A stretch of DNA of 40,129 nt from NCBI GenBank assembly GCA_004321885.1, contig SCQK01000006.1:1-40129 (forward strand), read 5' to 3'. The DNA is from Patescibacteria group bacterium (GTDB lineage: Bacteria; Patescibacteriota; Patescibacteriia; Magasanikbacterales; GWA2-37-8). The notes under the pieces were generated by a model. The model did no database searches. It was not told the DNA's origin and saw only the letters and a list, made by a program, of their open reading frames with translations. The position numbers and the translations under genes are program-made. Shown one piece after another: positions 2,381 through 39,795 of this stretch (positions are counted from its first letter, which is position 1; each line of letters starts with the position of its first letter).

Positions 2381-2689
2381 ATGGAAGTGCAATATTTTGA
2401 TGATCAACTCGAGGAATTCATCAAAAATTTGGAAGAATCGACTGTGGCTAAAGTCGTGAGAACAGTCGAGCTTTTGCGCCGATTTGGCCATCTGCTCGGG
2501 ATGCCTCATAGCAAAAAAGTTGGTAGTCATCTGTATGAATTACGCATACATGGAAAGCAGAAAGTCAGGATACTCTACACTTTTAAGGGTAGCGTCATTA
2601 TGCTTCTACATGGTTTTATCAAAAAATCTTCCAGAATTCCTACCAAAGAATTGCAAACTGCGCTCCAGAAGTTGGCGCGCTTGACATAA
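2381..2689 (+). CDS. higB: type II toxin, HigB/RelE-like (Gp49-like, COG4679 family)
   Basis: 102-aa ORF immediately upstream of an XRE-HTH gene; sequence pattern (..HLYELRIHG..VRILYTF.G..IMLLHGFIKKS) is typical of HigB/Gp49-like mRNA interferases. Confidence 0.75.
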   Translation: MEVQYFDDQLEEFIKNLEESTVAKVVRTVELLRRFGHLLGMPHSKKVGSHLYELRIHGKQKVRILYTFKGSVIMLLHGFIKKSSRIPTKELQTALQKLARLT

Positions 2690-2710
2690 TATAACATATA
2701 TGTTATATTA
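2681..2710 (+). promoter_or_regulatory. sigma70-like promoter (TTGACA-17-TATATT) overlapping a perfect 24-bp palindrome TAATATAACATATATGTTATATTA; putative HigA operator
   Basis: -35 at 2681-2686 (overlaps the higB stop), 17-nt spacer, -10 at 2704-2709; the palindrome 2687-2710 is centred in the spacer/-10; higA ATG at 2718 implies a leaderless or near-leaderless transcript. Confidence 0.55.
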
Positions 2711-2717
2711 GTTTTAT

Positions 2718-2990
2718 ATGAAATCTTTTACAGCGTTAAAAAAACAACTGTTGAAAAATAAAAAGGTTAAAAAGGCATACGATGAACTAGGTCCGGAATT
2801 TGCGTTGGCTAGCACACTTATTGAGAAACGAATCATACGAGGGCTGACCCAAGAGGCTTTAGCAAAAAAGGCCGGCACCAAACAATCCGCGATTGCCCGT
2901 TTAGAATCGGGAACTTATAACCCCTCATTTGCTTTTTTGAAAAAAGTTTCCAAGGCGTTGGACGCGCAGTTAATGGTGACTATTCATTAA
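2718..2990 (+). CDS. higA: HTH XRE-family antitoxin HigA
   Basis: 90 aa; C-terminal helix-turn-helix IRGLTQEALAKKAGTKQSAIARLESG; paired downstream of higB. Confidence 0.8.
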   Translation: MKSFTALKKQLLKNKKVKKAYDELGPEFALASTLIEKRIIRGLTQEALAKKAGTKQSAIARLESGTYNPSFAFLKKVSKALDAQLMVTIH

Positions 2991-4212: not shown

Positions 4213-5232
4213 TTAAGCAAGGGATTGCTTCGTCGCTTCGCTCCTCGCAATGACAGTAGAAGGTTTAATGGTTGAGAATTTGGCCAGCATTTTTTTGATA
4301 CCATTTTTATCCAAGATTCCTTTGAGCGAGCCGACTTCGGAAATCACTCCGCAACTATTAGCGATGCCCCAGCTTAGGGCGAGCGGGATCTCGTGTCCGT
4401 AAAAGCGAGCCGATAGATACCCGGCCGAAAAAGCGTCGCCGGCGCCGGTTTTGGCCACCACTTTTACCGGAAAACTTTCCAAGCGCCAGACCTCATCCAC
4501 GTTGCCGGCCCAGGCCCCGTTGGCCGCGTCGGTTATTACCACTTCCTTGGCGCCATCATTTAGCAGTTTACGTATCAAACCGGCGACTGATTTGGCTTTG
4601 GCCAACGTCAGGTCGCTGATTTTTTCCGCCTCTTCCAGATTCACTATTAAAACATCGGTTCGTTTCAACATCTCGCGTACTTTTGGCAAGGCGTTTTTAA
4701 TTTGGAAACTGCCCGGATTAAAAGCTAAGCGCGCTGTGCCGTGTTTGTCCAAAAAAGCCAATAATTTTTCTTGCAAATTTTCAAACCCTTCGCTCAAGCT
4801 GGTGTAATAAATCCAGTCAACCGGCGGCACGGTTCGCGGCCAGTCGTATTTTCGTTTTTGATGGTAAGATAAAATAGTGCGTTCGCCCTTGAAATTCAAA
4901 ATAATGGAATAGCGGGTAAGAGTCCTGGGGTCTTGGCTGGTCAAACTTGTGTCCACGTTGTTTTTTTTCAGCTCTTCCAAGATCAGCTTGCCGTTGGCGT
5001 CGGTGCCTAGCGAAGTAATGGCCGCGCATTTGAGCCCCAGCTTGGTAGCGCCCACAGCCACATTAGCCGCGTTGCCTCCGAGTGATTGAAAGCTGCCGGT
5101 AATGGGCACCTTACTGGCGTAGTCCAAACATAACTGACAATTTTCGTGATTAACATCGCATTGGACCGTTGCGTCATCTATAAAAACATGAGTGTCAATC
5201 ACCGCGTCGCCGATGGTAATGAGGTTGTACAT
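4213..5232 (-). CDS. PfkB-family carbohydrate kinase (ribokinase-like)
   Basis: 339 aa; N-terminal GxxxxD and C-terminal TGAGDAFSAGYL PfkB signatures; SD GGGAGGGG (part of element A4) 7 nt upstream of the ATG; the last ~13 codons (VIARSEATKQSLA) are encoded by palindromic element B1, so the native C-terminus is probably shorter. Confidence 0.8.
   Translation of the reverse strand: MYNLITIGDAVIDTHVFIDDATVQCDVNHENCQLCLDYASKVPITGSFQSLGGNAANVAVGATKLGLKCAAITSLGTDANGKLILEELKKNNVDTSLTSQDPRTLTRYSIILNFKGERTILSYHQKRKYDWPRTVPPVDWIYYTSLSEGFENLQEKLLAFLDKHGTARLAFNPGSFQIKNALPKVREMLKRTDVLIVNLEEAEKISDLTLAKAKSVAGLIRKLLNDGAKEVVITDAANGAWAGNVDEVWRLESFPVKVVAKTGAGDAFSAGYLSARFYGHEIPLALSWGIANSCGVISEVGSLKGILDKNGIKKMLAKFSTIKPSTVIARSEATKQSLA
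4221..4256. repeat. palindromic element B, copy B1 (one arm)
   Basis: GGGATTGCTTCGTCGCTTCGCTCCTCGCAATGACAG; forms the C-terminal codons of the PfkB kinase ORF. Confidence 0.75.
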
Positions 5233-14153: not shown

Positions 14154-14225
14154 GCGGGTGTAGCACAATGGTTAGTGCGTGTGCTTGCCAAGCATAAGAC
14201 GAGGGTTCGATTCCCTTCACCCGCT
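14154..14225 (+). tRNA. tRNA-Gly (anticodon GCC)
   Basis: Acceptor GCGGGTG/CACCCGC, D-arm GCAC..GTGC, anticodon loop TTGCCAA, T-loop GGTTCGATTCC. Confidence 0.8.
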
Positions 14226-14226
14226 C

Positions 14227-14299
14227 AGCGGGGTAGAGCAACTGGCAGCTCGCAGGGCCCATAACCCTGAGGTTCCCGGTTCAAGTCCGGGCCCCGCAA
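14227..14299 (+). tRNA. initiator tRNA-fMet (anticodon CAT)
   Basis: Anticodon loop CCCATAA; three consecutive G:C pairs closing the anticodon stem (GGG/CCC), a 1:72 A*A mismatch and an A11:U24 pair, all hallmarks of bacterial initiator tRNA; starts 1-2 nt after tRNA-Gly. Confidence 0.75.
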
Positions 14300-14307
14300 C
14301 AACGTAG

Positions 14308-14364
14308 GACGAGCGGAAGTGTTCCGCCTCTGTTCTGACATGGTCAATCCATGCCAACAACGAG
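14308..14364 (+). repeat. direct repeat DR1 (~55 bp) bounding the Fic cassette, immediately 3' of tRNA-fMet
   Basis: GACGAGCGGAAGTGTTCCGCCTCTGTTCTGACATGGTCAATCCATGCCAACAACGAG; ~90% identical to DR2; contains the inner palindrome GCGGAAgtgTTCCGC. Confidence 0.7.
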
Positions 14365-14469
14365 TAGGCTAACGATGACCCTCAGAACGAGGGTCATTTG
14401 GTTTCAGATTAGTCAGCAACTCTTGACCTATCTTATATAATCATATATACTCAAAATATAAGATGATAT

Positions 14470-15549
14470 ATGCTGAGAATCCAAAATCGCGGCCGGGGGA
14501 ATCGCCTTGACCGCCGACTAGCCAATCTTCCGTCCGGAGTCTGGTCCAAAATCGCGCAGGTAGATGAACTTAAGGGCCAGTGGATTGCCGGGGCTGAACT
14601 TTCGTCCCAGGTTTTGGGCCGCTTAAAGCGGTCGGTTTTGATTACCTCCGCCGGTGCTTCTACTCGCATTGAAGGCGCGCGACTATCCGACGAAGACGTC
14701 GAAAAAATGATGCGCGGCATTGATATTCAGAAATTCAGAGATCGTGACAAGCAAGAAGTGAAAGGGTATCATGAGCTTCTGGGGAATATGTTTGATTCTT
14801 GGAAGAGTTTGCAGTTCTCCGAGAACGCCATCAAACATTGTCACAAAGAACTCCTCAAATATGTGGAGAAAGACGAGGCGCATCGGGGCAGATACAAGAA
14901 GCAAGAGAATCGCGTGCAGATGGTAAATGCGGCCGGACAACCCGTGAGCGTGCTTTTTGATACCACACCGGCATATTTGGCGCCCAAAGAAACGCAGGAG
15001 CTCGCACAGTGGACGCGGAAGGCTCTGGAAACCGGCCAACATCATCCGTTGTTAGTCATCGGTAACTTTGTCGTTGAGTTCTTGGCCATCCATCCTTTCA
15101 CCGATGGTAACGGGCGTCTGTCGCGCGTTCTCACCAATCTGCTATTGCTCAAAGCGGGGTACCTTTATGTTCCATACGTATCGCACGAGAAGCTCATCGA
15201 GGACAACAAGCCAGATTACTATGTAGCCCTGCGGCGCAGCCAGAGGACGTTCAGGTCAAAGAGAGAAGACATTGCCCCGTGGCTCCATTTTTTTCTGGAT
15301 GTCGCGTTCAAGCAGGCGCAAATGGCGGTTGACTTGCTGTCCAAAGAAAACATTGAAAAACTGTTATCGCCAAAGCAACTGCAAGTCTGGCAGTACTTGC
15401 AGGGAGTAATTGAAGCGACAGCCGGAAAGATAGCCAAAGCCACAGGCGTCGCGCGTCCAACTATCAACCAGGCAGTGGACAAGCTCTTACGCTTGAAGAA
15501 GGTGGAACGCATCGGCCTTGGGCCCACGACAAGATACCGGAAGTTATGA
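14470..15549 (+). CDS. fic: Fic/DOC family protein with a C-terminal winged-HTH
   Basis: 359 aa; canonical Fic motif HPFTDGNGRLSR; C-terminal KIAKATGVARPTINQAVDKLLRLKKVERIG HTH; GC-rich relative to the genome. Confidence 0.85.
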   Translation: MLRIQNRGRGNRLDRRLANLPSGVWSKIAQVDELKGQWIAGAELSSQVLGRLKRSVLITSAGASTRIEGARLSDEDVEKMMRGIDIQKFRDRDKQEVKGYHELLGNMFDSWKSLQFSENAIKHCHKELLKYVEKDEAHRGRYKKQENRVQMVNAAGQPVSVLFDTTPAYLAPKETQELAQWTRKALETGQHHPLLVIGNFVVEFLAIHPFTDGNGRLSRVLTNLLLLKAGYLYVPYVSHEKLIEDNKPDYYVALRRSQRTFRSKREDIAPWLHFFLDVAFKQAQMAVDLLSKENIEKLLSPKQLQVWQYLQGVIEATAGKIAKATGVARPTINQAVDKLLRLKKVERIGLGPTTRYRKL

Positions 15550-15604
15550 CGAGCGGAAGTATTCCGCCTCTGTTCTCTGACATGGTTAATCCATGCCAAC
15601 GACG
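15548..15604 (+). repeat. direct repeat DR2
   Basis: GACGAGCGGAAGTATTCCGCCTCTGTTCTCTGACATGGTTAATCCATGCCAACGACGG; starts at the Fic stop codon; followed by a degenerate partial copy GGGCGGAAGTATTTCGCCGCTCG (15608-15632). Confidence 0.7.
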
Positions 15605-15705
15605 GATGGGCGGAAGTATTTCGCCGCTCGCCACAGGGCAGATTGGCCAATCATAGATTAAAGGGCATCGTATTAGACACCCTTTTGTTGTCCGCATAAA
15701 TCAAA

Positions 15706-24351: not shown

Positions 24352-24388
24352 AAAATGTCATTCCCCCGACTTAGTCGGGGGAATCCAG

Positions 24389-25414
24389 TTATAATAAATT
24401 TTGTGTTTTTGGCGCGTCGTGCCTCAGATGTCTGTAGGCCGCGGCGGTGGCTTTGCGGCCGCGCGGGGTGCGTTCCAAAAAGCCGATTTGCAAAAGGAAC
24501 GGTTCGCAGATGGTTTCAATGGTGTCCATTTCTTCGCTGATGGCCGCGGCCAGGGTGTTTAGCCCGGTGGGGCCGCCGCTGAATTTTTCTATCAAAGCGC
24601 CGAGCAGGCGGCGGTCAATGTCATCCAGTCCGTATTCGTCCACGGCCAGCATATCCAGCGCGGCCGAGGCGGTTTTTTCGTTCACGCCCTCTTCGTCTTT
24701 TACCTGCGCGAAGTCGCGGATGCGGCGCAAGAGCCGGTTGGCGATGCGCGGGGTGCGGCGGCTGCGTTTGGCGATGACCGAGGCGGCTTCGGGCTCAAGC
24801 CGGACTCCCAAGATGGTGGCGTTGCGGCGCAGAATTTTTTCCACGTCTTCGTGTTCGTAAAAATTGAGGTGAAAAGTGTGGCCAAAGCGGTCGCGCAGAG
24901 GAGCCGAGAGCATGCTCATTTTGGTGGTGGCGCCGATGAGGGTGAAGCGAGCCAATGGCATGCGGATACTGCGGGCGGTCGGTCCTTTGCCGATGATAAT
25001 ATCCAAAACATAATCCTCCAAAGCCGGGTAAAGCACTTCTTCTATGCTTTTGTTGAGTCGGTGAATTTCATCAATAAACAGCACGTCGCCCTCTTGCAGA
25101 TTGGAAAGTATGGCGGCCAGGTCGCCCACCTTTTCCATGGCCGGTCCGGACGTTATTTTTATGCTGTTGTTCATTTCATGGGCGATAATATGCGCCAGGG
25201 TGGTTTTGCCCAAACCCGGGTTGCCGTAAAGCAAAACATGTTCCAGATTTTCGCCGCGCTGTTTGGCTGCCTGCATGGAAATGCCGAGGTTTTGTTTGAT
25301 CTGTTCCTGGCCCACAAAATCGGCCAATTGCTTTGGGCGCAGGGTAATATCAAAAATCACGTCGTCTTGCTCGACTTGGGGTTCTATGACTCTGGGTTCG
25401 GCTTCGGTGTCCAT
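24389..25414 (-). CDS. ruvB: Holliday junction branch migration helicase RuvB
   Basis: 341 aa; Walker [12 protein letters not shown], Walker B DEIHRL, sensor/arginine finger and C-terminal winged helix; SD from element A7. Confidence 0.9.
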
Positions 25415-26442: not shown

Positions 26443-26667
26443 ATGAATGTAGCTCTCAATATCAAAAATTTATTATGGGATGTTGACGCAAAAAAAGTGG
26501 ATGCAAGCAAACACAAAAGTTTTTTAATTTCGCGAATTTCTGAAAAAGGCGGTACGCGAGAAATAGCCTGGTTGCGCCGCCAATATTCGGATAAAGACAT
26601 CAAGAAAATCGTGGCGAAAAGCCGCAATGTTTCGGCAAAGACAAAAAATTTTTGGAAGCTGTTTTAA
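26443..26667 (+). CDS. small protein (74 aa) translationally coupled to the AbiEii-like nucleotidyltransferase; putative antitoxin/partner
   Basis: Lys-rich 74-aa ORF directly downstream of a consensus promoter; its stop TAA is immediately followed by the ATG of the next gene (TAATATG). Confidence 0.5.
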   Translation: MNVALNIKNLLWDVDAKKVDASKHKSFLISRISEKGGTREIAWLRRQYSDKDIKKIVAKSRNVSAKTKNFWKLF

Positions 26668-26668
26668 T

Positions 26669-27298
26669 ATGTTTTATCCAGAGGCGCTGACCGCGGAATC
26701 AATCGCTTTAATAAAAAAAATTAATGCGAGCAAATGGCTGTCTGATTTTTATTTGGCCGGCGGTACGGGTTTGGCTTTATGGTATGGCCATCGGCAATCG
26801 GTTGATTTGGATTTTTTTAGAAAAAGCGATATTGCCACCAAGCAATTGATAAAAAAATTGTCTTCGCTCGGCAGATTCAAATTATTGAATGAAGAAGAAA
26901 ACACGGTGGAGGGGATACTGGAAAAGGTGAAAGTTAGTTTCATGACTTATCCGTATGGTTTGTTGCGCAAGCGTCAGCCGTATGATGGCGTTATCTTTTT
27001 AGCAGAACCATTGGATATCGCCGTCATGAAAGTCGGAGCGATCGCCGACAGAAATACGAAGAAAGATTTTATTGACCTGTATGTTTTTTTACGGCGCGAG
27101 AACATGAGTTTAAAAAATTTGTTATCGCATCTGCGAAAAAAATTCAGCCGCGTGAATTACGATATTTTTCATTTATACAAATCCCTTGTCTATTTTGAGG
27201 ATGCCGACAAAGAACCTATGCCGAGGATGTTTATTGATTTAAAATGGGAAAAGGTCAGGCGATTTTTTAAAGACGAGGTTAGGAAGCTGGTGGCATGA
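26669..27298 (+). CDS. nucleotidyltransferase of the AbiEii/AbiGii (DUF1814-like) toxin family
   Basis: ORF 26627..27298, start re-chosen at 26669; LAGGTGLALWYGHRQSVDLDFF matches the GGTAL..HR.S.DLDF nucleotidyltransferase signature of AbiEii-type proteins. Confidence 0.6.
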   Translation: MFYPEALTAESIALIKKINASKWLSDFYLAGGTGLALWYGHRQSVDLDFFRKSDIATKQLIKKLSSLGRFKLLNEEENTVEGILEKVKVSFMTYPYGLLRKRQPYDGVIFLAEPLDIAVMKVGAIADRNTKKDFIDLYVFLRRENMSLKNLLSHLRKKFSRVNYDIFHLYKSLVYFEDADKEPMPRMFIDLKWEKVRRFFKDEVRKLVA

Positions 27299-27625: not shown

Positions 27626-30600
27626 ATGGTAAATAACCTCGCCACCAAGACATTTGTTCTGGATACTGACTTCAAATACGCGCCGGAAACCGGTTTGCGT
27701 TTTAAGCGGCATTTTACCAAAGCAGGCGCTAATCCTTATGATTTGTTCACTTACGAGTTGCGCTCGTCCCTTATCCGCGAGCCCAGCGGCCAGATTGTGT
27801 TTGAAATGAAAGAGGTGGAAGTGCCTGTTACCTGGTCCCAGGTGGCCACCGACATTTTAGCGCAAAAATATTTTCGCAAGGCCGGAGTGCCGAAATATAA
27901 TCCGGACGGCTCGCCCATGCTTGGGGCCGACGGGCTACCGGTACTCGGCTGCGAAACCAGCATTAAGCAGGTGGCGCACCGAATGGCCGGCACCTGGCGG
28001 TATTGGGGAGAGAAGTACGGCTATTTTGCCTCGGCCGAGGACGCGCAGGTGTTTTACGACGAGCTGGCCTACATGCTCATCGCCCAGATGGCCGCGCCCA
28101 ACTCGCCCCAGTGGTTCAACACCGGTTTGTACTGGGCTTATGGCATCAATGGCCCGGCCCAGGGGCATTATTATACCGACCATAACACGGACATCACCCA
28201 GCTTTCGCCTGATGCCTATTCACGAAGTCAGGCGCACGCGTGTTTTATCCAAGGAGTCAAAGATGACTTGGTAAATGAAGGAGGAATTATGGATTTATGG
28301 CTGCGCGAAGCGCGGATATTTAAATATGGTTCGGGCACTGGCACAAATTTTTCGGCTTTGCGCGGCGCCGGCGAAACACTTTCCGGCGGCGGCACCTCCT
28401 CGGGCTTGATGAGCTGGCTTAAAATCGGGGACCGCGCGGCCGGGGCCATTAAATCCGGCGGCACCACGCGCCGCGCCGCCAAAATGGTAATCCTAAACAT
28501 TGACCATCCGGACATTGAAGAATTTATTGACTGGAAAGTGCGCGAGGAAAAAAAAGTGGCGGCTCTGATCGCCGCCGGCTATGATAATGCCTATGAGGGC
28601 GAGGCCTACCAGACCGTTTCCGGACAAAATTCAAACAACTCGGTGCGCGTGTCCCAGGAATTTTTGGAAGCCGTGGAAAGTGACAGTGACTGGAAATTAA
28701 CCTGGCGCACCGACCCCGACAAATTCAAAGCTGTTAAGGCAAAAAAATTGTGGGATAAAATCGCTTCGGCGGCCTGGTCCTGCGCCGACCCGGGCGTGCA
28801 ATTTGACACCAATATCAACGACTGGCACACCTGCCCAAAATCGGGCCGTATCAATGCCAGCAATCCTTGCGCGGAATTTATGTACCTGGACTCAAGCGCT
28901 TGTAATCTCGCTTCCATCAACCTGGCGCATTTTTATGACGCGGATAATTTGACCTTTGATGCAGACGGATTTAAGTACACTTCGCGCTTGTGGACTGTGG
29001 TTTTGGAAATCAGTATTTTGATGGCTCAATTTCCAAGCTATGAGATTGCCAGAACCACTCAAGACACCCGCAGTCTGGGTTTGGGCTATGCCAATATCGG
29101 CAGTGTGCTGATGACCGCGGGCCTGCCCTATGATTCGCCCGAGGCCATGGCTTTCGCCGGCGCTGTTACCGCCCTCATGACCGCCGAGTCGTTCGCCGCC
29201 TCGGCCGAGCTGGCCAAAAATTTGGGGGCGTTCAAGTATTTTGCCGCTAATCGCGATGACATGTTGCGTGTGGCGCGCAATCACCGGCGCGCGGCTTACA
29301 GCGCCCCGGCGGAAGAGTACGAAGGCATCGCCATTAAGCCCGCCGGCATAAATGAACAGTACGCGCCGGCTTATCTGCTGGCCGAGGCGCGCGCGGCCTG
29401 GGACAGGGCCCTGGAGCTGGGGGAAAAATACGGCTTTCGCAACGCCCAGCTCACCCTGCTCGCGCCTACCGGCACCATCGGCCTGGTAATGGACTGCGCC
29501 ACCACCGGCGTGGAGCCGGATTTCGCTTTGGTGAAATTTAAAAAATTGGCCGGCGGTGGATATTTTAAGATTGTCAACGAATCCGTGCCCGTGGCTTTGC
29601 GCGTGCTGGGCTACAGCGACTTGCAGATAAATGATGTAGTGAATTATTTGCGCGGACACTCCACTTTGCGTCAGGCCCCGCATATCAATCATCAAACTTT
29701 GCTGGAGAAAGGCTTTACGGCCGATGAGCTGGACAAATTGGAAAAAGCCCTGCCCATGAGTTTTGAATTGCAGTTTGCCCTAAATGTTTGGACACTGGGT
29801 GAGGACTGCCTGAAACGGCTGGGCTTTACCAGCGAGCAGTATAATGACAATAATTTTAATTTGCTGGCGGCGCTGGGATTTTCCGCCGATGATATAGCGG
29901 CGGCCAATGAATATGTTTGCGGGGCCATGACCATAGAAGGCGCGCCGCATTTGCGCAAAGAGCATTACGCGGTGTTTGACACGGCCAACAAGAACGGCAA
30001 AAAAGGCCAGCGCTACATTCATTACCTCGGCCACATCCGCATGATGGCCGCGGTCCAGCCGTTTCTTTCCGGCGCCATTTCTAAAACCATAAACATGCCG
30101 AACGAGGCGACGATAGACGACGTCAAAACCGCTTACGTGGCCTCATGGAAACTTGGGCTCAAGGCCGTTGCTTTGTATCGTGATGGGTGCAAGCTGTCGC
30201 AACCCTTGTCCGCGAAATCAAATAAGAAAAAAGAGGACAAGGCTGAGGAGCCGGTCAATGCCGCGCCCGCCCAGTATGTTTTGACCGATAAAAGCGACCA
30301 CGTGATTCGTCAGATGATTTCTGAAACCCAGGCCATGACCAAGTACGCGCACGACGGCTCCAGCCAGGGCACGAAAATTTACATTCACGGCGAACAGCGC
30401 AAGATGCCGTACAAGAGAAGCGGGCTGACGATTAAAGCCAAGGTCGCGGGCCAAAAAATATTCTTGCGCACCGGCGAGTATCCGGACGGCAAACTGGGCG
30501 AGATATTTATTGATATGTATAAAGAGGGCGCGGCTTTTCGTAGTTTGCTCAATTGTCTGGCCATCTCCATTTCCACGGGCCTGCAATACGGCATACCATT

Positions 30601-31069
30601 GGAAGAATACGTGGAAAAATTTACTTTTACGCGCTTTGAGCCCAGCGGCATGACCGACCACCCGAACGTGCGCTCGTGCACCTCCATCATTGATTTTGTC
30701 TTCCGCGTGCTGGGCATGGAATATCTGGGGCGGATGGATTTTGTGCAGGTGAAACCGGTCGGCATCCAAAAAAACCGGGCCGAGCAGATGGCGAAATTGG
30801 CGGCCGAGAAAGCCGGGCAGAGATTGCTGGAGTTAAACGGGGCGGAGACGGAAATTGAAGAAGTGGAAGAAATAGTTCAGCCGAGTTTGCCCAATATGCC
30901 GCGGACAGACGCGGCGGGAAAAGGCGAGGTGACTTCCGACGCAATGAACCAGCAACTCGCGGGCATGATGGGCGACGCGCCGCCGTGCGCTACTTGCGGG
31001 CATGTCACTATACGAAACGGCAGTTGCTATAAGTGTTTGAATTGCGGGAGTACGACCGGGTGTTCTTGA
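27626..31069 (+). CDS. nrdJ: adenosylcobalamin-dependent ribonucleotide reductase (class II)
   Basis: 1147 aa; N-terminal ATP-cone-like region, RNR active-site Cys/Asn/Glu blocks (NPCAEFMYLDSSACNLASINL), C-terminal Zn-ribbon CATCGHVTIRNGSCYKCLNCGSTTGC typical of class II RNR. Confidence 0.9.
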   Translation: MVNNLATKTFVLDTDFKYAPETGLRFKRHFTKAGANPYDLFTYELRSSLIREPSGQIVFEMKEVEVPVTWSQVATDILAQKYFRKAGVPKYNPDGSPMLGADGLPVLGCETSIKQVAHRMAGTWRYWGEKYGYFASAEDAQVFYDELAYMLIAQMAAPNSPQWFNTGLYWAYGINGPAQGHYYTDHNTDITQLSPDAYSRSQAHACFIQGVKDDLVNEGGIMDLWLREARIFKYGSGTGTNFSALRGAGETLSGGGTSSGLMSWLKIGDRAAGAIKSGGTTRRAAKMVILNIDHPDIEEFIDWKVREEKKVAALIAAGYDNAYEGEAYQTVSGQNSNNSVRVSQEFLEAVESDSDWKLTWRTDPDKFKAVKAKKLWDKIASAAWSCADPGVQFDTNINDWHTCPKSGRINASNPCAEFMYLDSSACNLASINLAHFYDADNLTFDADGFKYTSRLWTVVLEISILMAQFPSYEIARTTQDTRSLGLGYANIGSVLMTAGLPYDSPEAMAFAGAVTALMTAESFAASAELAKNLGAFKYFAANRDDMLRVARNHRRAAYSAPAEEYEGIAIKPAGINEQYAPAYLLAEARAAWDRALELGEKYGFRNAQLTLLAPTGTIGLVMDCATTGVEPDFALVKFKKLAGGGYFKIVNESVPVALRVLGYSDLQINDVVNYLRGHSTLRQAPHINHQTLLEKGFTADELDKLEKALPMSFELQFALNVWTLGEDCLKRLGFTSEQYNDNNFNLLAALGFSADDIAAANEYVCGAMTIEGAPHLRKEHYAVFDTANKNGKKGQRYIHYLGHIRMMAAVQPFLSGAISKTINMPNEATIDDVKTAYVASWKLGLKAVALYRDGCKLSQPLSAKSNKKKEDKAEEPVNAAPAQYVLTDKSDHVIRQMISETQAMTKYAHDGSSQGTKIYIHGEQRKMPYKRSGLTIKAKVAGQKIFLRTGEYPDGKLGEIFIDMYKEGAAFRSLLNCLAISISTGLQYGIPLEEYVEKFTFTRFEPSGMTDHPNVRSCTSIIDFVFRVLGMEYLGRMDFVQVKPVGIQKNRAEQMAKLAAEKAGQRLLELNGAETEIEEVEEIVQPSLPNMPRTDAAGKGEVTSDAMNQQLAGMMGDAPPCATCGHVTIRNGSCYKCLNCGSTTGCS

Positions 31070-31082
31070 TGCAAGTTACATT

Positions 31083-31661
31083 ATGAAAATCTATACCAAA
31101 ACCGGCGACACCGGTGAGACGTCGTTGTTAGGGGGAAAGAGGGTGAGTAAGAGCTGTGTGGAAATGAAAGTAGTTGGGGAAATTGATGAACTTAACGCGG
31201 CTTTGGGATTGGCTGTGTCACACTGTCATTCTGACCACGACGTAACGTCGGGGGAAGAATCCCTTGTTTTAATCATCAAAGACATTCAGCGCGATTTATT
31301 TAAATTAGGTGCGGAAATCGCTTCAGCTCAAACTGTCATTGCGACCCGCCCGGAGGCGGGGAAGCAATCACGGACAATCAGCGGCGAAGAAACAAAAAAA
31401 TTGGAAACAAAAATAGACCAACTCTGGCCCCAAATGCCCGAGTTGAAAAATTTTATCCTGCCCGGCGGGTGCGAGACGGCCGCGCGTCTGCACCTGGCCC
31501 GCGCGATTTGCCGCCGCGCCGAACGCGAACTGGTGGCCTTTGGCCAAAAGAAAAAAATCAGGACGGCATTGTATAGATACTTCAATCGCCTAAGCGATTT
31601 TCTCTTTACCGCGGCCCGCTGGGCCAATCATCAGAATGGAATCACAGAAGAGCCACGCTAA
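31083..31661 (+). CDS. PduO-type ATP:cob(I)alamin adenosyltransferase
   Basis: 192 aa; N-terminal MKIYTKTGDTGETSLLGGKRVSK and the C-terminal helical bundle of the PduO/MMAB family; contains two in-frame insertions derived from palindromic element B (31223-31263 and 31333-31369). Confidence 0.8.
   Translation: MKIYTKTGDTGETSLLGGKRVSKSCVEMKVVGEIDELNAALGLAVSHCHSDHDVTSGEESLVLIIKDIQRDLFKLGAEIASAQTVIATRPEAGKQSRTISGEETKKLETKIDQLWPQMPELKNFILPGGCETAARLHLARAICRRAERELVAFGQKKKIRTALYRYFNRLSDFLFTAARWANHQNGITEEPR
31223..31263. repeat. palindromic element B, degenerate copy B2, in-frame in pduO
   Basis: CTGTCATTCTGACCACGACGTAACGTCGGGGGAAGAATCCC (compare GTCATTGCGAG ... GAAGCAATCCC with an inner CGACGTnACGTCG hairpin as in B5). 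Confidence 0.6.
31333..31369. repeat. palindromic element B, copy B3, in-frame in pduO
   Basis: CTGTCATTGCGACCCGCCCGGAGGCGGGGAAGCAATC, near-identical to the first arm of B4. Confidence 0.7.
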
Positions 31662-31898: not shown

Positions 31899-33704
31899 AT
31901 GCCAAGGAGAGATAGAAAAAAAATCGCGCGCGGATTTAGTTTGTTGGAAGTGGTGCTTTCCGTCGGCATTTTTGTTTTGTTCGCTTTTGGCATTTACGGC
32001 GGCATCAATTTGATATTCAAAATTGTTTACCAGTCGCGCATGCGCATTTTAGAAACCGCGATTTTGGCCGAGAAATTGGAAATCGCGCGCAACCTGCCCT
32101 TTGACAGCGTGGGCATAATAAACGGCTCGCCCGCGGGCCTGCTGCCCCACACCACGACCACCATCAGAAACGGGCAGGTCTTCACCCTAATTACCACGGT
32201 GAGAAACATAGACGACCCTTTTGACGGCCTGGCCGGCGGCTCGCCCAACGACACTTCGCCGGCTGATTACAAGTTAGTGGAAATTTCCGCCATTTGTCAG
32301 ACCTGTCTGCAAAAAATCCCGGTAATTTTAAGCACCACTGTGGCGCCGAAAAATTTGGAAGGCGCCACCAGCAACGGCTCGCTTTTTATTCAGGTGTTTG
32401 ACGCCCAGGGTTTGCCCGTGGTCGGCGCCAATGTGAGCGCCACCAATACCGCGCGCGCGCCAAACGTGGTGATACAAGACACCACCGACAATACCGGCTG
32501 GCTAAAAATTATAGACACCACCACCGGCACGCAAAGCTATTATATTTCCGTCACTAAAAACGGCTTTTCGCGCGATTATTCGGTTGACGCGGCTTCCATA
32601 GGGGCCACGCCCATCAAGCCTCCGTCCACAGTTGTTACTCAAACCGTCACCGAGGTTAGTTTTTCCATAGACCGCGTCGGCTCAATGAATTTACACACCA
32701 TCAATTCAGGCTGTTCGGCCATCGCCAATGCCGATTTTAATATCAGAAGCGAACGGCTCCTTGGCACTAATCCGGATGTTTACAAATACAATCAAAATTT
32801 AACCACGAACGGCTCGGGCAATTACGCCTTTGCCAGCATGGAATGGGGCAAATATCATTTCAGCGCCACCAATACGCCCTATGATATCGCCGGCTCCATT
32901 CCCATGCTGCCGGCGGATTTGGCGCCGGGCGCGGCCCAGGACGTCTCTTTGATTTTAACCTCGCAATCCCCCAATTCATTGCTGGTGAAAGTAAAAGACG
33001 CGGGTACTGGCCTGCCGCTTTCCGACACGTTGGTTCATCTTACCAAAAGCGGCTATGATGAAAGTAAAACAACCGGTTATGGATTTATGCGCCAAACCGA
33101 TTGGTCCGGCGGAAGCGGCCAGGTAACCAGCACAGACCCGGCGCGCTATTTTGCCGATGACACCAACGTGGACAACAATTCTCCGGCCGGGGATTTGAAA
33201 TTAAAAAAAGCCGGCCCTGATTATCTAAACAGCGGCTGGCTGGAGTCTTCCACTTTTGATCTGCAAACGCAAGTTGATTTTCATAGTTTAATTTTTCAGC
33301 CGGTCACCCAGCCGCCGCAGACCGGGACCGAACCCATAAAATTTCAGATGGCCGCCACCAATACCCCCAGTTCCAGCGGCTGGGTTTATCTGGGCCCGGA
33401 CGGCGCCACCAGCACTTATTATGTTTCCACCAGCAGTTTGGTGTGGAGCGGCTTGGATAACAATCGCTATCTGCGTTACAAAGTATTTTTGAGCACGGCT
33501 GACACAGGCTATACTCCATTGCTGTCCGAAGTCTCCATCACCTATACCAATAACTGCGTGCCGCCCGGGCAGGTGTTTTTTGGCGGGCTTGGCGCCGGCA
33601 GTTACACATTGGAAGTTTCGCGAAATGGCTATATCACCAACAGCGGGCTGGTGGATGTGGCCGGCGCCACCGACGCGGTGGTAAATTTGTCTCCGAATAT
33701 ATGA
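31899..33704 (+). CDS. large type IV pilin-like protein (prepilin-type N-terminal cleavage/methylation domain)
   Basis: 601 aa; class III signal KKIARG|FSLLEVVLSVGIFVLFAF with Gly-1 and Glu+5, then a Thr/Ser/Asn/Gly-rich beta-type region of ~550 aa. Confidence 0.75.
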   Translation: MPRRDRKKIARGFSLLEVVLSVGIFVLFAFGIYGGINLIFKIVYQSRMRILETAILAEKLEIARNLPFDSVGIINGSPAGLLPHTTTTIRNGQVFTLITTVRNIDDPFDGLAGGSPNDTSPADYKLVEISAICQTCLQKIPVILSTTVAPKNLEGATSNGSLFIQVFDAQGLPVVGANVSATNTARAPNVVIQDTTDNTGWLKIIDTTTGTQSYYISVTKNGFSRDYSVDAASIGATPIKPPSTVVTQTVTEVSFSIDRVGSMNLHTINSGCSAIANADFNIRSERLLGTNPDVYKYNQNLTTNGSGNYAFASMEWGKYHFSATNTPYDIAGSIPMLPADLAPGAAQDVSLILTSQSPNSLLVKVKDAGTGLPLSDTLVHLTKSGYDESKTTGYGFMRQTDWSGGSGQVTSTDPARYFADDTNVDNNSPAGDLKLKKAGPDYLNSGWLESSTFDLQTQVDFHSLIFQPVTQPPQTGTEPIKFQMAATNTPSSSGWVYLGPDGATSTYYVSTSSLVWSGLDNNRYLRYKVFLSTADTGYTPLLSEVSITYTNNCVPPGQVFFGGLGAGSYTLEVSRNGYITNSGLVDVAGATDAVVNLSPNI

Positions 33705-33713
33705 GTATTATCC

Positions 33714-33799
33714 CTGTCATTGCGAGGACCCGCCCAGGGCGGGGACGAAGCAATCTCTTGCAATTACGCATGGGATTGCTTCGCTTCGCTCGCAATGAC
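33714..33799. repeat. palindromic element B, complete copy B4 (both arms)
   Basis: GTCATTGCGAG-GACCCGCCCAGGGCGGGGAC-GAAGCAATC ... GGATTGCTTCGCTTCGCTCGCAATGAC; the arms are reverse complements; lies between pilin genes 1 and 2. Confidence 0.8.
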
Positions 33800-34390
33800 A
33801 TGCGCGGCATCACGGTCGTGGAAGTGCTGGTGGCCGTGGCGCTTTTTGGTTTTTTGATAGTTTCCATCGCCTGGATTTTTTTGACCAGCTGGAAATCAAA
33901 CAGCATTGTTTGGGAACAGCTGGCCACGCAAAACGAGGGCCGCAAAGCCACCCAGGATTTTGTCAATGAACTGCGCACGGCTTCGGCTTCAAGCGGCGGG
34001 GCCTATGCCATAGAATCAGCCGCCACCTCATCCATAGTTTTTTATTCCAACATTGACGCGGACACTTTCAAAGAGCGCGTGCGTTATTTTCTTTCCGGCG
34101 CCACTCTCAAAAAAGGCGTCATCAAGCCGACCGGCGACCCGTTTGTCTACAATCCGGCCAATGAAATCATTACCGAAGTGGCGCACGATGTGGCCATGGC
34201 CGGCGCCCCGATTTTCACGTATTATAATGCAAATTTTAGCGGTTATTCTTCGCCTTTGCCCGCGCCAGTTACCACGACAATGATAAGGGTGGTAAATATC
34301 TCCTTGAAATTAGAAGAGGACCCGCATTTGTCTCCGGCGCCGTTTAACATTGAATCTAAAGTGATGATAAGAAATTTGAAAGACAACTGA
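33800..34390 (+). CDS. prepilin-type pseudopilin/minor pilin
   Basis: ORF 33701..34390; the first 33 codons are the in-frame translation of palindromic element B4; the ATG at 33800 gives MRG|ITVVEVLVAVALFGFLIVSIAW, a canonical prepilin signal with Glu+5. Confidence 0.7.
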   Translation: MRGITVVEVLVAVALFGFLIVSIAWIFLTSWKSNSIVWEQLATQNEGRKATQDFVNELRTASASSGGAYAIESAATSSIVFYSNIDADTFKERVRYFLSGATLKKGVIKPTGDPFVYNPANEIITEVAHDVAMAGAPIFTYYNANFSGYSSPLPAPVTTTMIRVVNISLKLEEDPHLSPAPFNIESKVMIRNLKDN

Positions 34391-38127: not shown

Positions 38128-38613
38128 ATGCGCCTTATCAATTTATATTTTTTTCTGGCTTTGCTTTTAGCGGTTTTTTTGTCCCCTGTCATTCCCGCGC
38201 AAGCTGAAAGTCCCTTTGGCACTGATGACGAGCAGGCTGGGCAGGCAAAGAAAAACGTTCAAGAGAAAGAAACCAAATCAAGCGAGCGCGCTTTGCCTTC
38301 GGTATTGCCAAACTGCGCCAAGACCGGCGATTTGTCCGCGAGTTCGCCCTGCCGCGATGTTTCCATATTCGTGGAGCTTGGCATCAACATCGCGCGCTAT
38401 TTGTTTTCCATTATCGGCGCGCTGGCCCTCTTAATGTTCGTCTACGGCGGCTTTATGCTGATACTGTCGGCCGGCAGCGCCGAGCGGGTGAAAAAAGGCG
38501 GTGAAATAATGCTGGCGGCTATGGTGGGACTCCTAATTTCATTTACCGCCTATATGCTGGTGCGCTTTTTGGGCGGGGCCGTGGGGCTTGGGAGTGAGTT
38601 TAAGTTGAAGTGA
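38128..38613 (+). CDS. TrbC/VirB2-like pilin family protein, paralog 1
   Basis: 161 aa; signal peptide, ~75-aa variable region with 2 Cys, then a conserved C-terminal two-helix hairpin ALALLMFVYGGFMLILSAGSAERVKKGGEIMLAAMVGLLISFTAYML; SD from element A9. Confidence 0.7.
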   Translation: MRLINLYFFLALLLAVFLSPVIPAQAESPFGTDDEQAGQAKKNVQEKETKSSERALPSVLPNCAKTGDLSASSPCRDVSIFVELGINIARYLFSIIGALALLMFVYGGFMLILSAGSAERVKKGGEIMLAAMVGLLISFTAYMLVRFLGGAVGLGSEFKLK

Positions 38614-38675
38614 CCCCGCTTAGCGGGGTTATTCTGACCATGCACCGCTCTGGTGCAGGGGAAGGATCCCTTAGT

Positions 38676-39290
38676 ATGAACAAGAAAAAAGTTGGAATGG
38701 TTATCATAATTTTATTGGCGGTATTTTTTTCTTTTTTGTTTGTTTCGTTTTCAGTAAAAGCCGCTTCAAATTGTTGGTGTAGCGTGCAGAACAAATGCAC
38801 TTTAAATATCCCGGCGGAAGAATGCGTGACGTTTGGACCAGATTGCCAATCGCAAGATACCTGCCCTGGTTATGTGGCTTGTTTTTGTGCCATGAAAAAT
38901 AATAGCTGTGAATTAGTGAAAGGCGGCGGGGAAGATTGTCAGGCGGCAGGTTGTAATATTTTAACCGAATGTCCCAAACCAGCGGAAAAACAGACTGACA
39001 CGTTTAGTAATTTACAACAGCAGGCCGCGAGTGGTCTGAATCCGGCCGGGTTTGGCGAGGTGCCGGATTTTATCGGTCAAGTTTTGAAGTTTCTAATGGG
39101 CGCCTTGGGTTCAATCGCTTTGGCGCTGTATGTGTGGGCTGGGTTTTTGTGGATGACCGCGGCTGGCAATGCTGAGCGCGCGGGCAAGGCCAAGACACTG
39201 TTGTTTTGGACCACTTTGGGCGTGGTGGGCGCTTTGGCCAGTTACACGCTCGTTAAGTTTATTTTCCAGGCCCTGGAACTAAGCGTATGA
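38676..39290 (+). CDS. TrbC/VirB2-like pilin family protein, paralog 2 (Cys-rich ectodomain)
   Basis: ORF 38610..39290, start re-chosen at 38676 (MNKKKVGMVIIILL...); 14 Cys in an ~80-aa variable domain, then the conserved hairpin SIALALYVWAGFLWMTAAGNAERAGKAKTLLFWTTLGVVGALASY. Confidence 0.7.
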   Translation: MNKKKVGMVIIILLAVFFSFLFVSFSVKAASNCWCSVQNKCTLNIPAEECVTFGPDCQSQDTCPGYVACFCAMKNNSCELVKGGGEDCQAAGCNILTECPKPAEKQTDTFSNLQQQAASGLNPAGFGEVPDFIGQVLKFLMGALGSIALALYVWAGFLWMTAAGNAERAGKAKTLLFWTTLGVVGALASYTLVKFIFQALELSV

Positions 39291-39688
39291 AAAAATTTTT
39301 ATTACTTTGTTTAGTTATATTTTTAGTCGCGTTATTTTTTCCTTTGGCGGGCTTGCGGGCCGAGGAGGCAAAAAAAGATTGCGCGCCCGACAGCACAGGC
39401 CAAATCGTGTGCAAATTACAGCCGCCGCTCTTGGGCAAAGATAAAAAACCCGTTACTGACCCGGCCGCGCTTGTCGGCATTATCATCAAGGGAGTTTTGG
39501 GCATTGTAGGTGCGCTCGCTTTATTGATGGTTTTTTGGGGCGCGGCTGGCTGGCTGTTCGCGGCCGGCAATCCGGAGAAAATTAAAGCCAGCACCAAAAC
39601 GATTGTTTGGGCTTTAATTGGGTTGCTGATAATTTTTGCCAGCTATATGTATATGAACGGCGTTTTGAAGTTTATGTTTGGCGGTTGA
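39287..39688 (+). CDS. TrbC/VirB2-like pilin family protein, paralog 3
   Basis: 133 aa; signal peptide, short variable region with 2 Cys, conserved hairpin ALALLMVFWGAAGWLFAAGNPEKIKASTKTIVWALIGLLIIFASYM; 4-nt overlap with paralog 2. Confidence 0.7.
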   Translation: MKKFLLLCLVIFLVALFFPLAGLRAEEAKKDCAPDSTGQIVCKLQPPLLGKDKKPVTDPAALVGIIIKGVLGIVGALALLMVFWGAAGWLFAAGNPEKIKASTKTIVWALIGLLIIFASYMYMNGVLKFMFGG

Positions 39689-39709
39689 TGGGAAAAGTGG
39701 TATACTATT

Positions 39710-39795
39710 GTCATTGCGAGCAAAGCGAAGCAATCCCATACATAATTGCAAGGGATTGCCGCGCCCCGACGTGACGTCGGGGCTCGCAATGACAG
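39710..39795. repeat. palindromic element B, complete copy B5
   Basis: GTCATTGCGAGCAAAGCGAAGCAATCCC ... GGGATTGCCGCGCCCCGACGTGACGTCGGGGCTCGCAATGACAG; lies between TrbC-like paralogs 3 and 4. Confidence 0.8.

What the first reader, a model, noticed from the sequence alone, without database searches (positions are those of the whole stretch)
31223..31369. Two in-frame element-B insertions inside the PduO-type cobalamin adenosyltransferase gene
Segments 31223-31263 (VSHCHSDHDVTSGEES) and 31333-31369 (TVIATRPEAGKQS) of the 192-aa PduO-type protein are recognisable copies of element B arms, the second nearly identical to the first arm of B4. The ORF remains intact, so the enzyme appears to tolerate two palindrome-derived peptide insertions. 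Together with the rpe, SpoU (both termini) and PfkB (C-terminal tail) cases, this suggests coding sequences here are frequent insertion targets.
Basis: partly seen in the sequence, partly recalled or inferred. Interest (0 to 1): 0.7.

Follow-up and report, generated by a model that had tools for sequence, protein, structure and literature searches.

The report
Hairpin repeats translated inside PduO gene
Two short hairpin-forming repeat units of a known kind (TGTC/CGTC-tagged REP elements, the class that includes some Rickettsia palindromic elements) sit in frame in two loop-coding parts of an apparently functional cobalamin adenosyltransferase gene of a Patescibacteria genome. This is a real but already precedented phenomenon.

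Summary
Window 31224-31263 and 31334-31371, inside the intact 192-aa PduO-type adenosyltransferase ORF (31083..31661), are copies of the repeat unit that builds "element B". Each matches one arm of an intergenic element B copy (33715-33800, 39709-39794) far above background, nested hairpin included.

The unit is TGTC, then a stem opening with A-T and T-A, a variable inner hairpin, and a short C-rich tail. Element B is an inverted pair of such units. This is the architecture of the CGTC/TGTC-tagged REP superfamily (Di Nocera et al. 2013), which includes Rickettsia RPE-4 and RPE-6 and is already known to occur in frame inside genes.

The two units lie in the helix1-helix2 and helix2-helix3 loops. 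They lengthen the loops by 8 and 6 residues relative to the 178-aa core of most orthologues. Residues matching LrPduO D35, F112, R128 and R132 are kept, dN/dS is 0.17, and the gene follows an AdoCbl-dependent ribonucleotide reductase.

Many orthologues carry other repeat units, in other reading frames, at the same loops.

How the units spread is unknown, and no transposase was found. Novelty: new member of a known kind. Interest is moderate.

The parts
31083..31661 (+). PduO-type ATP:cob(I)alamin adenosyltransferase gene, 192 aa, host of the two units
   Evidence: ORF. PF01923 E=1.3e-54. TIGR00636 at 173.5 bits. Fold matches 1RTY, 3KE5, 2NT8 and 2IDX.
31224..31263 (+). Segment 1: single TGTC-tagged REP-like unit (TGTC-ATTCT-GA-[CCACGACGT AA CGTCGGGG]-GA-AGAAT-CCC). 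It is read as C48-S60 (CHSDHDVTSGEES), covering the end of helix 1, the loop and the start of helix 2.
   Evidence: Score 37 to the right arm of the 39709-39794 copy. Regex hit. Its nested hairpin matches best within the window. Folds as the unit hairpin in RNA, -14.3 kcal/mol. pLDDT dips at residues 51-60.
31334..31371 (+). Segment 2: single TGTC-tagged REP-like unit (TGTC-ATTGC-GA-[CCCGCC CGGA GGCGGG]-GAA-GCAAT-CAC). It is read in a different frame as V85-S96 (VIATRPEAGKQS), in the helix 2-helix 3 loop.
   Evidence: Score 42 to the left arm of the 33715 copy. Regex hit. RNA hairpin -22.6 kcal/mol, z=-4.05. DNA hairpin z=-3.1. A basic unit sits at the same nucleotide position in orthologue L081.
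33715..33800 (.). Full element B: inverted pair (heterodimer) of two units. The left unit carries the CCCGCCC/GGGCGGG nested hairpin shared with segment 2. It fills the spacer between the stop at 33704 and the likely ATG at 33800 of a pilin-like gene.
   Evidence: DNA fold -33.5 kcal/mol, z=-8.0. The N_methyl motif starts at residue 32 of the long ORF.
39709..39794 (.). Full element B: inverted pair of units. The right unit carries the CCCCGACGT/ACGTCGGGG nested hairpin shared with segment 1. Intergenic.
   Evidence: DNA fold -33.7 kcal/mol, z=-8.9. Interior match.
4221..4255 (-). Single unit forming the C-terminal tail of the PfkB-family kinase ORF (4213..5232, minus strand), read in the same frame as segment 2 (TVIARSEATKQS)
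   Evidence: The Pfam PfkB domain ends at residue 301 of 339.
24356..24387 (+). Single unit with a continuous 11-bp stem, 3-nt loop and CCA tail (TGTC ATTCCCCCGAC TTA GTCGGGGGAAT CCA), just beyond the stop codon of ruvB (24389..25414, minus strand)
27626..31069 (+). Adenosylcobalamin-dependent (class II) ribonucleotide reductase, ending 13 nt upstream of the PduO gene. It is the likely consumer of the AdoCbl that PduO makes.
   Evidence: NF005122 at 1244 bits against a cut-off of 859, and TIGR02504 NrdJ_Z at 590 bits against a cut-off of 400.

Best explanation
The two segments are single units of a short hairpin repeat family that became part of the PduO coding sequence. The unit has a 5' TGTC tag, a stem opening with A-T and T-A, a variable inner hairpin and a short C-rich tail. 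They arrived by two separate events, because they are read in different frames. One unit, at site 2, lies at the same nucleotide position as a unit in the closest orthologue. The other, at site 1, is lineage-specific.

Element B is simply an inverted pair of such units. The family has the architecture of the CGTC/TGTC-tagged REP superfamily.

The units are translated as 13- and 12-residue stretches. These remodel and lengthen the two inter-helix loops at either end of helix 2 by 8 and 6 residues. The helical core and the residues probed by mutation in LrPduO are untouched, so the enzyme very probably still makes AdoCbl for the adjacent class II ribonucleotide reductase.

Shown here:
- the element identity of both segments;
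- their loop location;
- the absence of the inserts in most orthologues;
- purifying selection on the gene;
- recurrence of similar insertions at the same loops in other lineages.

Inferred:
- Copies are made from other copies in the same genome, because the nested hairpins are shared only within this window.
- Only insertions that keep the frame and land in tolerant loops survive selection.

The enzyme that moves the units is unknown. Candidates are a trans-acting HUH/Y1-type single-strand transposase, template switching at hairpins, or ectopic gene conversion.
For: - Element identity.
- The unit is itself a hairpin. The closing stems covary: ATTGC/GCAAT, ATTCT/AGAAT, ATTCC/GGAAT and ATCTC/GAGAT. 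The L083 dimer has two different self-complementary units.
- Folds.
- Loop location: helices 26-49, 56-83 and 101-117, with lower pLDDT over the inserts. Gaps at exactly these places appear against 1RTY, 3KE4, 2AH6 and LrPduO.
- Orthologues: the modal length is 18 residues at both sites, against 26 and 24 in the window.
- Other units occur at the same loops in three reading frames, as singles and as dimers.
- Gene function: dN/dS 0.17, conserved residues, nrdJ context.
- Family description and in-frame precedent: PMC3733652 and PMC10969869.
Against: - The net length gain (24 and 18 nt) is smaller than the units (40 and 38 nt). The events were therefore not clean insertions, or were followed by deletions.
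- No transposase was found in the window or among ORFs in 609 kb around 225 units from metagenomes.
- No target-site duplication or flank motif was found.
- The inner part of element B units does not fit the 8-9 bp stem and 4-5 nt loop of the four described CGTC families.
- Enzyme activity and loop exposure in the trimer were not tested.
Confidence: 0.85

Rival explanations
1. The mode of entry was ectopic gene conversion or microhomology-mediated patch repair from intergenic copies, which overwrote the loop-coding DNA, rather than transposition of a unit.
For: - The net gain is only 24 and 18 nt for units of 40 and 38 nt.
- At site 2 the window and L081 have units at the same nucleotide position but with different interiors. 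The window's interior matches the copy 2.4 kb away better than any of 304 other units.
- No transposase or target motif was found.
Against: - Nothing in the insert-free orthologues resembles the unit ends consistently. One (L082) has TGTCA and AAGCA at site 2, while L083 and L084 do not.
- This cannot explain the first arrival at a naive site.
Confidence: 0.25
2. The units are kept because they do something. They could act as intragenic mRNA or DNA hairpins, for example blocking 3'-5' decay so that nrdJ mRNA outlasts pduO mRNA, or pausing ribosomes. Alternatively they could act as useful loop extensions of the protein.
For: - Segment 2 is a very stable RNA hairpin, -22.6 kcal/mol with z=-4.05.
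- The unit termini at site 2 are 20/20 identical between the window and L081, although the genes are 70.5% identical with dS about 1.4.
- REPs are known mRNA stabilisers (PMC3733652).
Against: - Most orthologues have no insert.
- Inserts at the same loops differ in family, frame and length.
- Segment 1 and the units in L081 and L082 fold no better than shuffles.
- A neighbouring stretch of the gene outside the unit is just as conserved.
Confidence: 0.1
3. The resemblance is due to chance, or the contig is misassembled across repeats.
For: The contig comes from a metagenome-assembled genome, and repeats are common sites of misassembly.
Against: - Scores are far above the background of the window, and there are 8 units against 0.16 expected.
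- The reading frame and all invariant residues are preserved.
- An independent assembly from another sample (L081, Logan SRR22388050) has a unit at the same site.
Confidence: 0.02

Closest known systems
CGTC-tagged REP superfamily (Di Nocera, De Gregorio and Rocco 2013, BMC Genomics 14:522; PMC3733652)
   Same: - An unpaired 5' tag CGTC, often changed to TGTC.
- A stem whose first two pairs are A-T and T-A.
- A 3-nt tail close to CCA.
- Units occur as singletons and as inverted dimers, including heterodimers that can fold as one long hairpin.
- Units occur in frame inside genes and at ORF ends.
- No dedicated transposase is known.
- Peptides seen at the PduO loops of orthologues match the paper's intragenic CGTC units. 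VIPAKAGIQ and DSRLRGNDN correspond to CGTC-1. CHPELVSGS resembles the CGTC-2 peptide RHSELVSGS.
   Different: - Element B units have only a 5-bp Watson-Crick closing stem. It is followed by G/A-rich internal loops and either a GCGNAGC-type mini-hairpin or a longer nested hairpin, not a continuous 8-9 bp stem with a 4-5 nt loop.
- The tail is mostly CCC or CTC.
- The host phylum (Patescibacteria) is not among the five phyla reported.
Rickettsia palindromic elements (RPE; Ogata et al. 2000, as summarised in PMC10969869)
   Same: Palindromic repeats are inserted in frame into unrelated housekeeping genes without destroying them. RPE-4 and RPE-6 are themselves CGTC-4 and CGTC-1 REPs.
   Different: The classic RPE-1 is about 150 bp and encodes a conserved peptide of roughly 45 residues. 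Here the units are 27-45 nt and encode about 9-15 residues, and the host is a free-standing Patescibacteria lineage rather than Rickettsia.
GTAG REPs, REPINs and RAYT transposases
   Same: A tetranucleotide tag followed by an imperfect hairpin, inverted doublets (REPIN/BIME-like) that fold into a long hairpin, and many dispersed copies.
   Different: The tag is TGTC, not GTAG. No RAYT or IS200/IS605 gene was seen next to units. GTAG REPs are mostly extragenic.

Membership tests
CGTC-tagged REP superfamily | Unpaired tetranucleotide tag CGTC (TGTC or CCTC variants accepted) at one end | tested here: met
   All 8 window units, including both PduO segments, start with TGTC. CGTC variants occur in L016. 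Definition from PMC3733652.
CGTC-tagged REP superfamily | Stem begins with complementary A-T and T-A pairs in the first and second positions | tested here: met
   Columns 5-6 pair with columns 21-20: AU in 17 of 18 units and UA in 18 of 18. Both PduO segments read AT...AT.
CGTC-tagged REP superfamily | Stem of 8-9 bp and loop of 4-5 nt (families CGTC-1 to CGTC-4) | tested here: not met
   Element B units and both PduO segments have a 5-bp closing stem, internal loops and a nested hairpin. The unit at 24356 has an 11-bp stem and a 3-nt loop. They are therefore not members of any of the four described families, though the overall plan is shared.
CGTC-tagged REP superfamily | Three-nucleotide unpaired tail, consensus CCA | tested here: inconclusive
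   The tails are CCC (segment 1), CAC (segment 2), CTC or CCC (element B) and CCA (24356). In 154 metagenomic units the two bases after ATC are mostly T or C followed by C.
CGTC-tagged REP superfamily | Multi-copy, dispersed, with singletons and inverted dimers (homo- or heterodimers) | tested here: met
   There are 8 units in 40 kb: two inverted heterodimers and four singletons. At least 120 metagenome stretches carry units.
CGTC-tagged REP superfamily | No associated transposase gene | tested here: met
   No transposase domain appears in about 40 window ORFs. No recurrent transposase-like family appears among 1388 open frames around the metagenomic units. This is weak evidence, because whole genomes were not available.
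GTAG REP / REPIN-RAYT system | GTAG tag, and a RAYT gene flanked by the same REPs | tested here: not met
   The tag is TGTC and no RAYT lies in the window. A genome-wide search for a RAYT was not possible.
MITE (miniature inverted-repeat transposable element) | Terminal inverted repeats flanked by a target-site duplication | tested here: not met
   No duplicated flank is present at 33715-33800, at 39709-39794 or at the PduO units (direct reading). No flank motif was found.
PduO-type ATP:cob(I)alamin adenosyltransferase | Family profile match, helical-bundle fold, and the residues probed in LrPduO (D35, F112, R128, R132) | tested here: met
   PF01923 and TIGR00636 match. Target-normalised TM-scores to 1RTY, 2IDX and 3KE5 are 0.8-0.9. 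D35, F124, R140 and R144 align with LrPduO D35, F112, R128 and R132. Activity was not tested.

The most novel reading that the evidence does not exclude
TGTC-tagged hairpin units may still be active in this Patescibacteria lineage. On this reading they are exchanged or re-copied between intergenic and intragenic sites, which would explain nested-hairpin subtypes shared only within this genome. The repeated occupation of the same two PduO loops in many lineages, and even in another phylum, would then reflect a DNA-level preference or a co-opted role. One such role would be an intragenic hairpin setting the NrdJ:PduO expression ratio. The alternative, passive survival in tolerant loops, would not apply. 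With their small genomes, these organisms could then reveal the long-missing mobilising activity of CGTC-type REPs.
Probability: 0.12. Interest if true: 0.65.

Novelty: new member of a known kind. Interest (0 to 1): 0.4.

Why it matters
The finding shows that the small, streamlined genomes of Patescibacteria carry the same kind of tagged hairpin repeats known from Proteobacteria and Rickettsia, and that here too they end up translated inside housekeeping enzymes.

The PduO family gives an unusually clear natural experiment. One small helical-bundle enzyme has two or three loops that have accepted many different repeat units in different frames and lineages. That marks positions that tolerate insertions, which is relevant because this fold is used as a scaffold in designed protein cages.

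It is also a practical warning for annotation. Odd peptides such as CHSE..EES, VIA..KQS and SLRG..LAMT in Patescibacteria proteins are repeat-derived. ORFs that start or end inside such repeats may be over-extended.

It does not reveal a new mechanism.

Tried and rejected
- **Species-representative genome scan.** I used the PduO alignment hoping for close relatives with and without the inserts. Only L002, L016, L025 and L079 were useful.
- **Literature string searches.** Searches for the element DNA and its peptides found nothing relevant. A search for palindromic repeats in Patescibacteria found no description.
- **Rfam.** No family matches the element; only four tRNAs reach threshold in the window.
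- **Search for a mobilising enzyme.** Pfam scans of about 40 window ORFs found none. All-against-all clustering of 1388 open frames around the metagenomic units gave only ABC ATPases, response regulators and histidine kinases.
- **Search for a target motif or duplication.** Neither was found.
- **Covariation count on the closing stem.** The result looks strong, but some units were collected with a pattern that demands complementarity. Only the independently found units count as evidence: element B copies, segment 1, L082, and both units of L083.
- **Conserved termini at site 2 as proof of selection or recent insertion.** I rejected this as decisive, because an adjacent non-element stretch is equally conserved.
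- **Distance of the loops from the active site.** This could not be measured, because model coordinates are not exposed.

Full report
**What is at the coordinates.** The window is a 40,129-bp contig of a metagenome-assembled Patescibacteria genome. ORF 31083..31661 (+) encodes a 192-aa PduO-type ATP:cob(I)alamin adenosyltransferase. It matches PF01923 at E=1.3e-54 and TIGR00636 at 173.5 bits. It starts 13 nt after the stop of an adenosylcobalamin-dependent class II ribonucleotide reductase (27626..31069; NF005122 and TIGR02504 both above their cut-offs). That enzyme is the obvious user of the cofactor PduO makes.

**Check of the observation.** "Element B" is present as two full palindromes, at 33715-33800 and 39709-39794.
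- Segment 2 (31334-31369, TGTCATTGCGACCCGCCCGGAGGCGGGGAAGCAATC) aligns to the left arm of the 33715 copy with a local score of 42.
- Segment 1 (31224-31263, TGTCATTCTGACCACGACGTAACGTCGGGGGAAGAATCCC) aligns to the reverse complement of the right arm of the 39709 copy with a score of 37.
- When those arms were scanned over the whole window on both strands, the PduO segments were the best chunks outside element B copies. The 99th percentile of the 1780 chunks was 20-22, and the best chunk outside any unit scored 24.
- A structural pattern (TGTCAT-NNN, a gap, the reverse complement of ATNNN, then C) finds 8 units in the window. Five hundred dinucleotide-preserving shuffles give a mean of 0.16 and a maximum of 3.

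The similarity begins at codon C48 rather than V45.

**Anatomy of the repeat.** Each arm of element B is itself a unit: TGTC, a 5-bp stem beginning A-T and T-A, a G/A-rich interior with a mini-hairpin or a longer nested hairpin, the complementary 5 nt, and a tail of CCC, CTC or CCA.

The closing stem differs between copies, and the partner changes with it. The observed stems are ATTGC/GCAAT (element B and segment 2), ATTCT/AGAAT (segment 1 and L082), and ATTCC/GGAAT and ATCTC/GAGAT (the two units of the L083 dimer). In L083 the two units of one dimer have different stems, so each pairs with itself and not with its partner. The unit is thus the basic hairpin, and element B is an inverted pair of units. 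In both element B copies the two arms differ, so they are heterodimers.

One caveat applies. Some units in the covariation count were collected with a pattern that requires complementarity. Only the independently found units listed above count as evidence.

The full elements fold as long branched hairpins, with DNA energies of -33.5 and -33.7 kcal/mol and z-scores of -8.0 and -8.9. Segment 2 folds alone into the unit hairpin, at -22.6 kcal/mol with z=-4.05 as RNA and z=-3.1 as DNA. Segment 1 adopts the same shape as RNA but is not better than shuffles.

The window holds two more single units. One forms the last residues of the PfkB-family ORF (...TVIARSEATKQSLA*, the same frame as segment 2). 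The other lies just beyond the stop codon of ruvB (24356-24387).

**Are they insertions?** The 120 closest homologues are at most 66-70% identical to the window protein. Among them the stretch G42..Q69 has a modal length of 18 residues (61 of 120), and Q83..E108 has a modal length of 18 (86 of 120). The window has 26 and 24. That is +8 and +6 residues, which accounts exactly for 192 against the common 178 aa.

The closest homologue (P0002; DNA in L081) has nothing at site 1. At site 2 it has TGTCATTGCGAGAGAAGCGAAGCAAACCC. This starts at the same nucleotide (CAAAC|TGTC) and is read in the same frame, but it lacks the nested hairpin. No lineage conserves the window's peptides as peptides.

The net gain (24 and 18 nt) is less than the unit lengths (40 and 38 nt). 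Part of the ancestral loop-coding sequence was therefore replaced or later deleted.

The two units are read in different frames (TGT CAT... against ..T GTC ATT...), so they arrived in separate events.

**Recurrence at the same loops.** DNA of other orthologues shows other units at site 1:
- a single TGTCATTCTGAACGGAGTGAAGAATCTC in L082;
- a dimer of two different units in L083;
- a complete element B in a third reading frame (SLRG...LAMT) in L084;
- a dimer reading VIPAKAGIQ...DSRLRGNDN in a MAG labelled Gammaproteobacteria, L002.

By peptide signature, 25 of the 59 homologues with extra residues at site 1 carry TGTC/CGTC-type peptides. Six carry peptides of the other local repeat (element A, GGGGAGGGG type). 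At site 2 the counts are 4 and 3. This count is heuristic; it was verified at the DNA level in six cases.

A third loop, between helices 4 and 5, carries a short tandem GAAGTCC-type insert in a few homologues.

No conserved flank motif precedes 154 units taken from the window, the homologue loci and the metagenome loci. The simplest reading is that insertions land widely and persist only where the protein tolerates them.

**Effect on the protein.** An AlphaFold2 model built with 120 sequences has mean pLDDT 82.8. It has helices at 26-49, 56-83, 101-117, 131-156 and 161-184. Segment 1 (C48-S60) covers the end of helix 1, the loop and the start of helix 2. Segment 2 (V85-S96) lies in the helix 2-helix 3 connection. 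Confidence dips over both, with block means of 69 and of 67/63.

The core superposes on solved PduO-type enzymes including B. subtilis YvqK, L. reuteri PduO and human MMAB, with target-normalised TM-scores of 0.8-0.9. Sequence alignments to solved enzymes open gaps exactly at the two sites.

Residues aligned with LrPduO D35, F112, R128 and R132 are D35, F124, R140 and R144. Three of these (D35, F112, R132) are the ones changed in deposited LrPduO variant structures. dN/dS against L081 is 0.17 at dS of about 1.4.

The gene is under purifying selection, and tolerance of the inserts is the likely state. Activity was not measured. I could not compute the distance of the loops from the inter-subunit active site.

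**Where the copies came from.** Among 304 units pooled from the window, the orthologue loci and 120 metagenome loci, the best match to the nested hairpin of each PduO segment is the intergenic copy in this same window. Those matches score 28, against next-best scores of 16 and 21. The intragenic and intergenic copies therefore belong to the same sub-lineages within this genome.

For site 2 this means one of two things. Either a unit was re-inserted, or an older unit shared with L081 was converted. I cannot tell which. The unit termini at site 2 are 20/20 identical between two genes that are 70.5% identical overall, but a neighbouring non-element stretch is equally conserved. This does not prove selection or recent origin.

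**Spread and mobilisation.** In 609 kb of those loci I found 225 units. Forty-five of them lie in open frames extending at least 40 codons on both sides, and several lie in ORFs hundreds of codons long. Many of these contigs carry genes typical of larger genomes, so the family does not look confined to Patescibacteria.

No transposase was found in the window. No protein family recurs around the units apart from common housekeeping ones. No target-site duplication is visible. No Rfam family matches.

**Comparison with what is known.** Di Nocera, De Gregorio and Rocco (2013; PMC3733652) defined a superfamily of REPs as follows:
[quoted passage not shown] - 3-nt tails near CCA;
- mostly inverted dimers, either homo- or heterodimers;
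- units located inside genes;
- no dedicated transposase.

Rickettsia RPE-6 and RPE-4 are CGTC-1 and CGTC-4. The intragenic peptides the paper lists (VIPAKAGI, SFPRKRES, DSRFRGND, RHSELVSGS) are the same as, or close to, those I see at the PduO loops of orthologues.

The window's units share the tag, the A-T/T-A stem start, the tail type, the dimer organisation, the intragenic habit and the lack of a transposase. They differ in one defining respect. The four described families have a continuous 8-9 bp stem and a 4-5 nt loop. Element B units instead have a 5-bp closing stem with G/A-rich internal loops and a variable nested hairpin. [quoted passage not shown]

I therefore file the find as a new family-level member of a known kind, working like the intragenic CGTC REPs and RPEs. 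It is not a member of any of the four named families.

**Verdict.** The phenomenon is genuine, neat and well documented here, with recurrent occupation of the same loops in one small enzyme. It is not a new principle. In-frame palindromic repeats in housekeeping genes have been known since the Rickettsia work (summarised in PMC10969869) and were generalised in 2013. The open question is how tagged REPs without a transposase are copied, and this window does not answer it.

Noticed in passing
One copy is read in frame inside the ribulose-phosphate 3-epimerase gene (SLPLLEGGQGRG, just before the IAVDGG motif). Two copies lie at the ends of the long SpoU ORF (IPSFIRRGLRGG and SPPLYKGRVREG*). Peptides of this type (SPPARGGARGGG and similar) also occur at PduO loops in other genomes.
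   Followed up: partly
window 14305-14369 and 15545-15611: A direct repeat of about 65 nt (86-94% identical) brackets a Fic/DOC-family gene (14470..15549), immediately downstream of tRNA-Gly and tRNA-Met (14154-14300). The layout resembles attachment sites of a small element integrated next to a tRNA gene.
   Followed up: no
window 33701-33802: The long ORF 33701..34390 begins inside the element B dimer. Its prepilin-type N-methylation motif starts at residue 32, and an ATG at 33800 overlaps the last base of the element. The true start is therefore probably 33800, and the dimer fills the spacer between the two genes. This is an example of ORF over-extension through a repeat.
   Followed up: partly
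window 27626-31661: The class II (AdoCbl-dependent) ribonucleotide reductase and the PduO-type adenosyltransferase are adjacent on the same strand, 13 nt apart. In several related loci PduO instead follows an NYN-domain gene, or is followed by the same pilin-like genes, so part of the synteny is conserved.
   Followed up: partly
L082 about 640-665; L084 about 2550-2580 (PduO helix 4-helix 5 loop): A third loop of PduO carries a short tandem GAAGTCC/GAAGCCC-type repeat in some orthologues (peptides SEDRSPKSN and LKSEDRSPKPN). This is a different kind of insert from the hairpin units.
   Followed up: no
L002 3144-3226: A MAG labelled Gammaproteobacteria has an inverted pair of CGTC-1-like units (TGTCATCCCTGCGAAGGCAGGGATCCA / TGTCATTCCCGCGAAGGCGGGAATCTA) in frame at the same PduO loop. 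It gives VIPAKAGIQ...DSRLRGNDN, the peptides listed for Rickettsia conorii CGTC-1 (RPE-6).
   Followed up: partly
window 2381-2990 and 26627-27298: Toxin-antitoxin-type genes are present: a Gp49-like gene with an HTH partner, and an AbiEii nucleotidyltransferase toxin. There are also three consecutive T4SS-pilin-like genes at 38128-39688.
   Followed up: no
metagenome loci L086-L205: The commonest interiors of the 27-nt units are CGAAGC, CGCAGC and CGTAGC. Together with the preceding G these give GCGNAGC, which from my own knowledge (not checked here) is the motif of exceptionally stable DNA mini-hairpins. Longer units extend this inner hairpin (GAGCGNAGCGAC, then larger nested stems), as if the interior grows by palindrome extension.
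   Followed up: no
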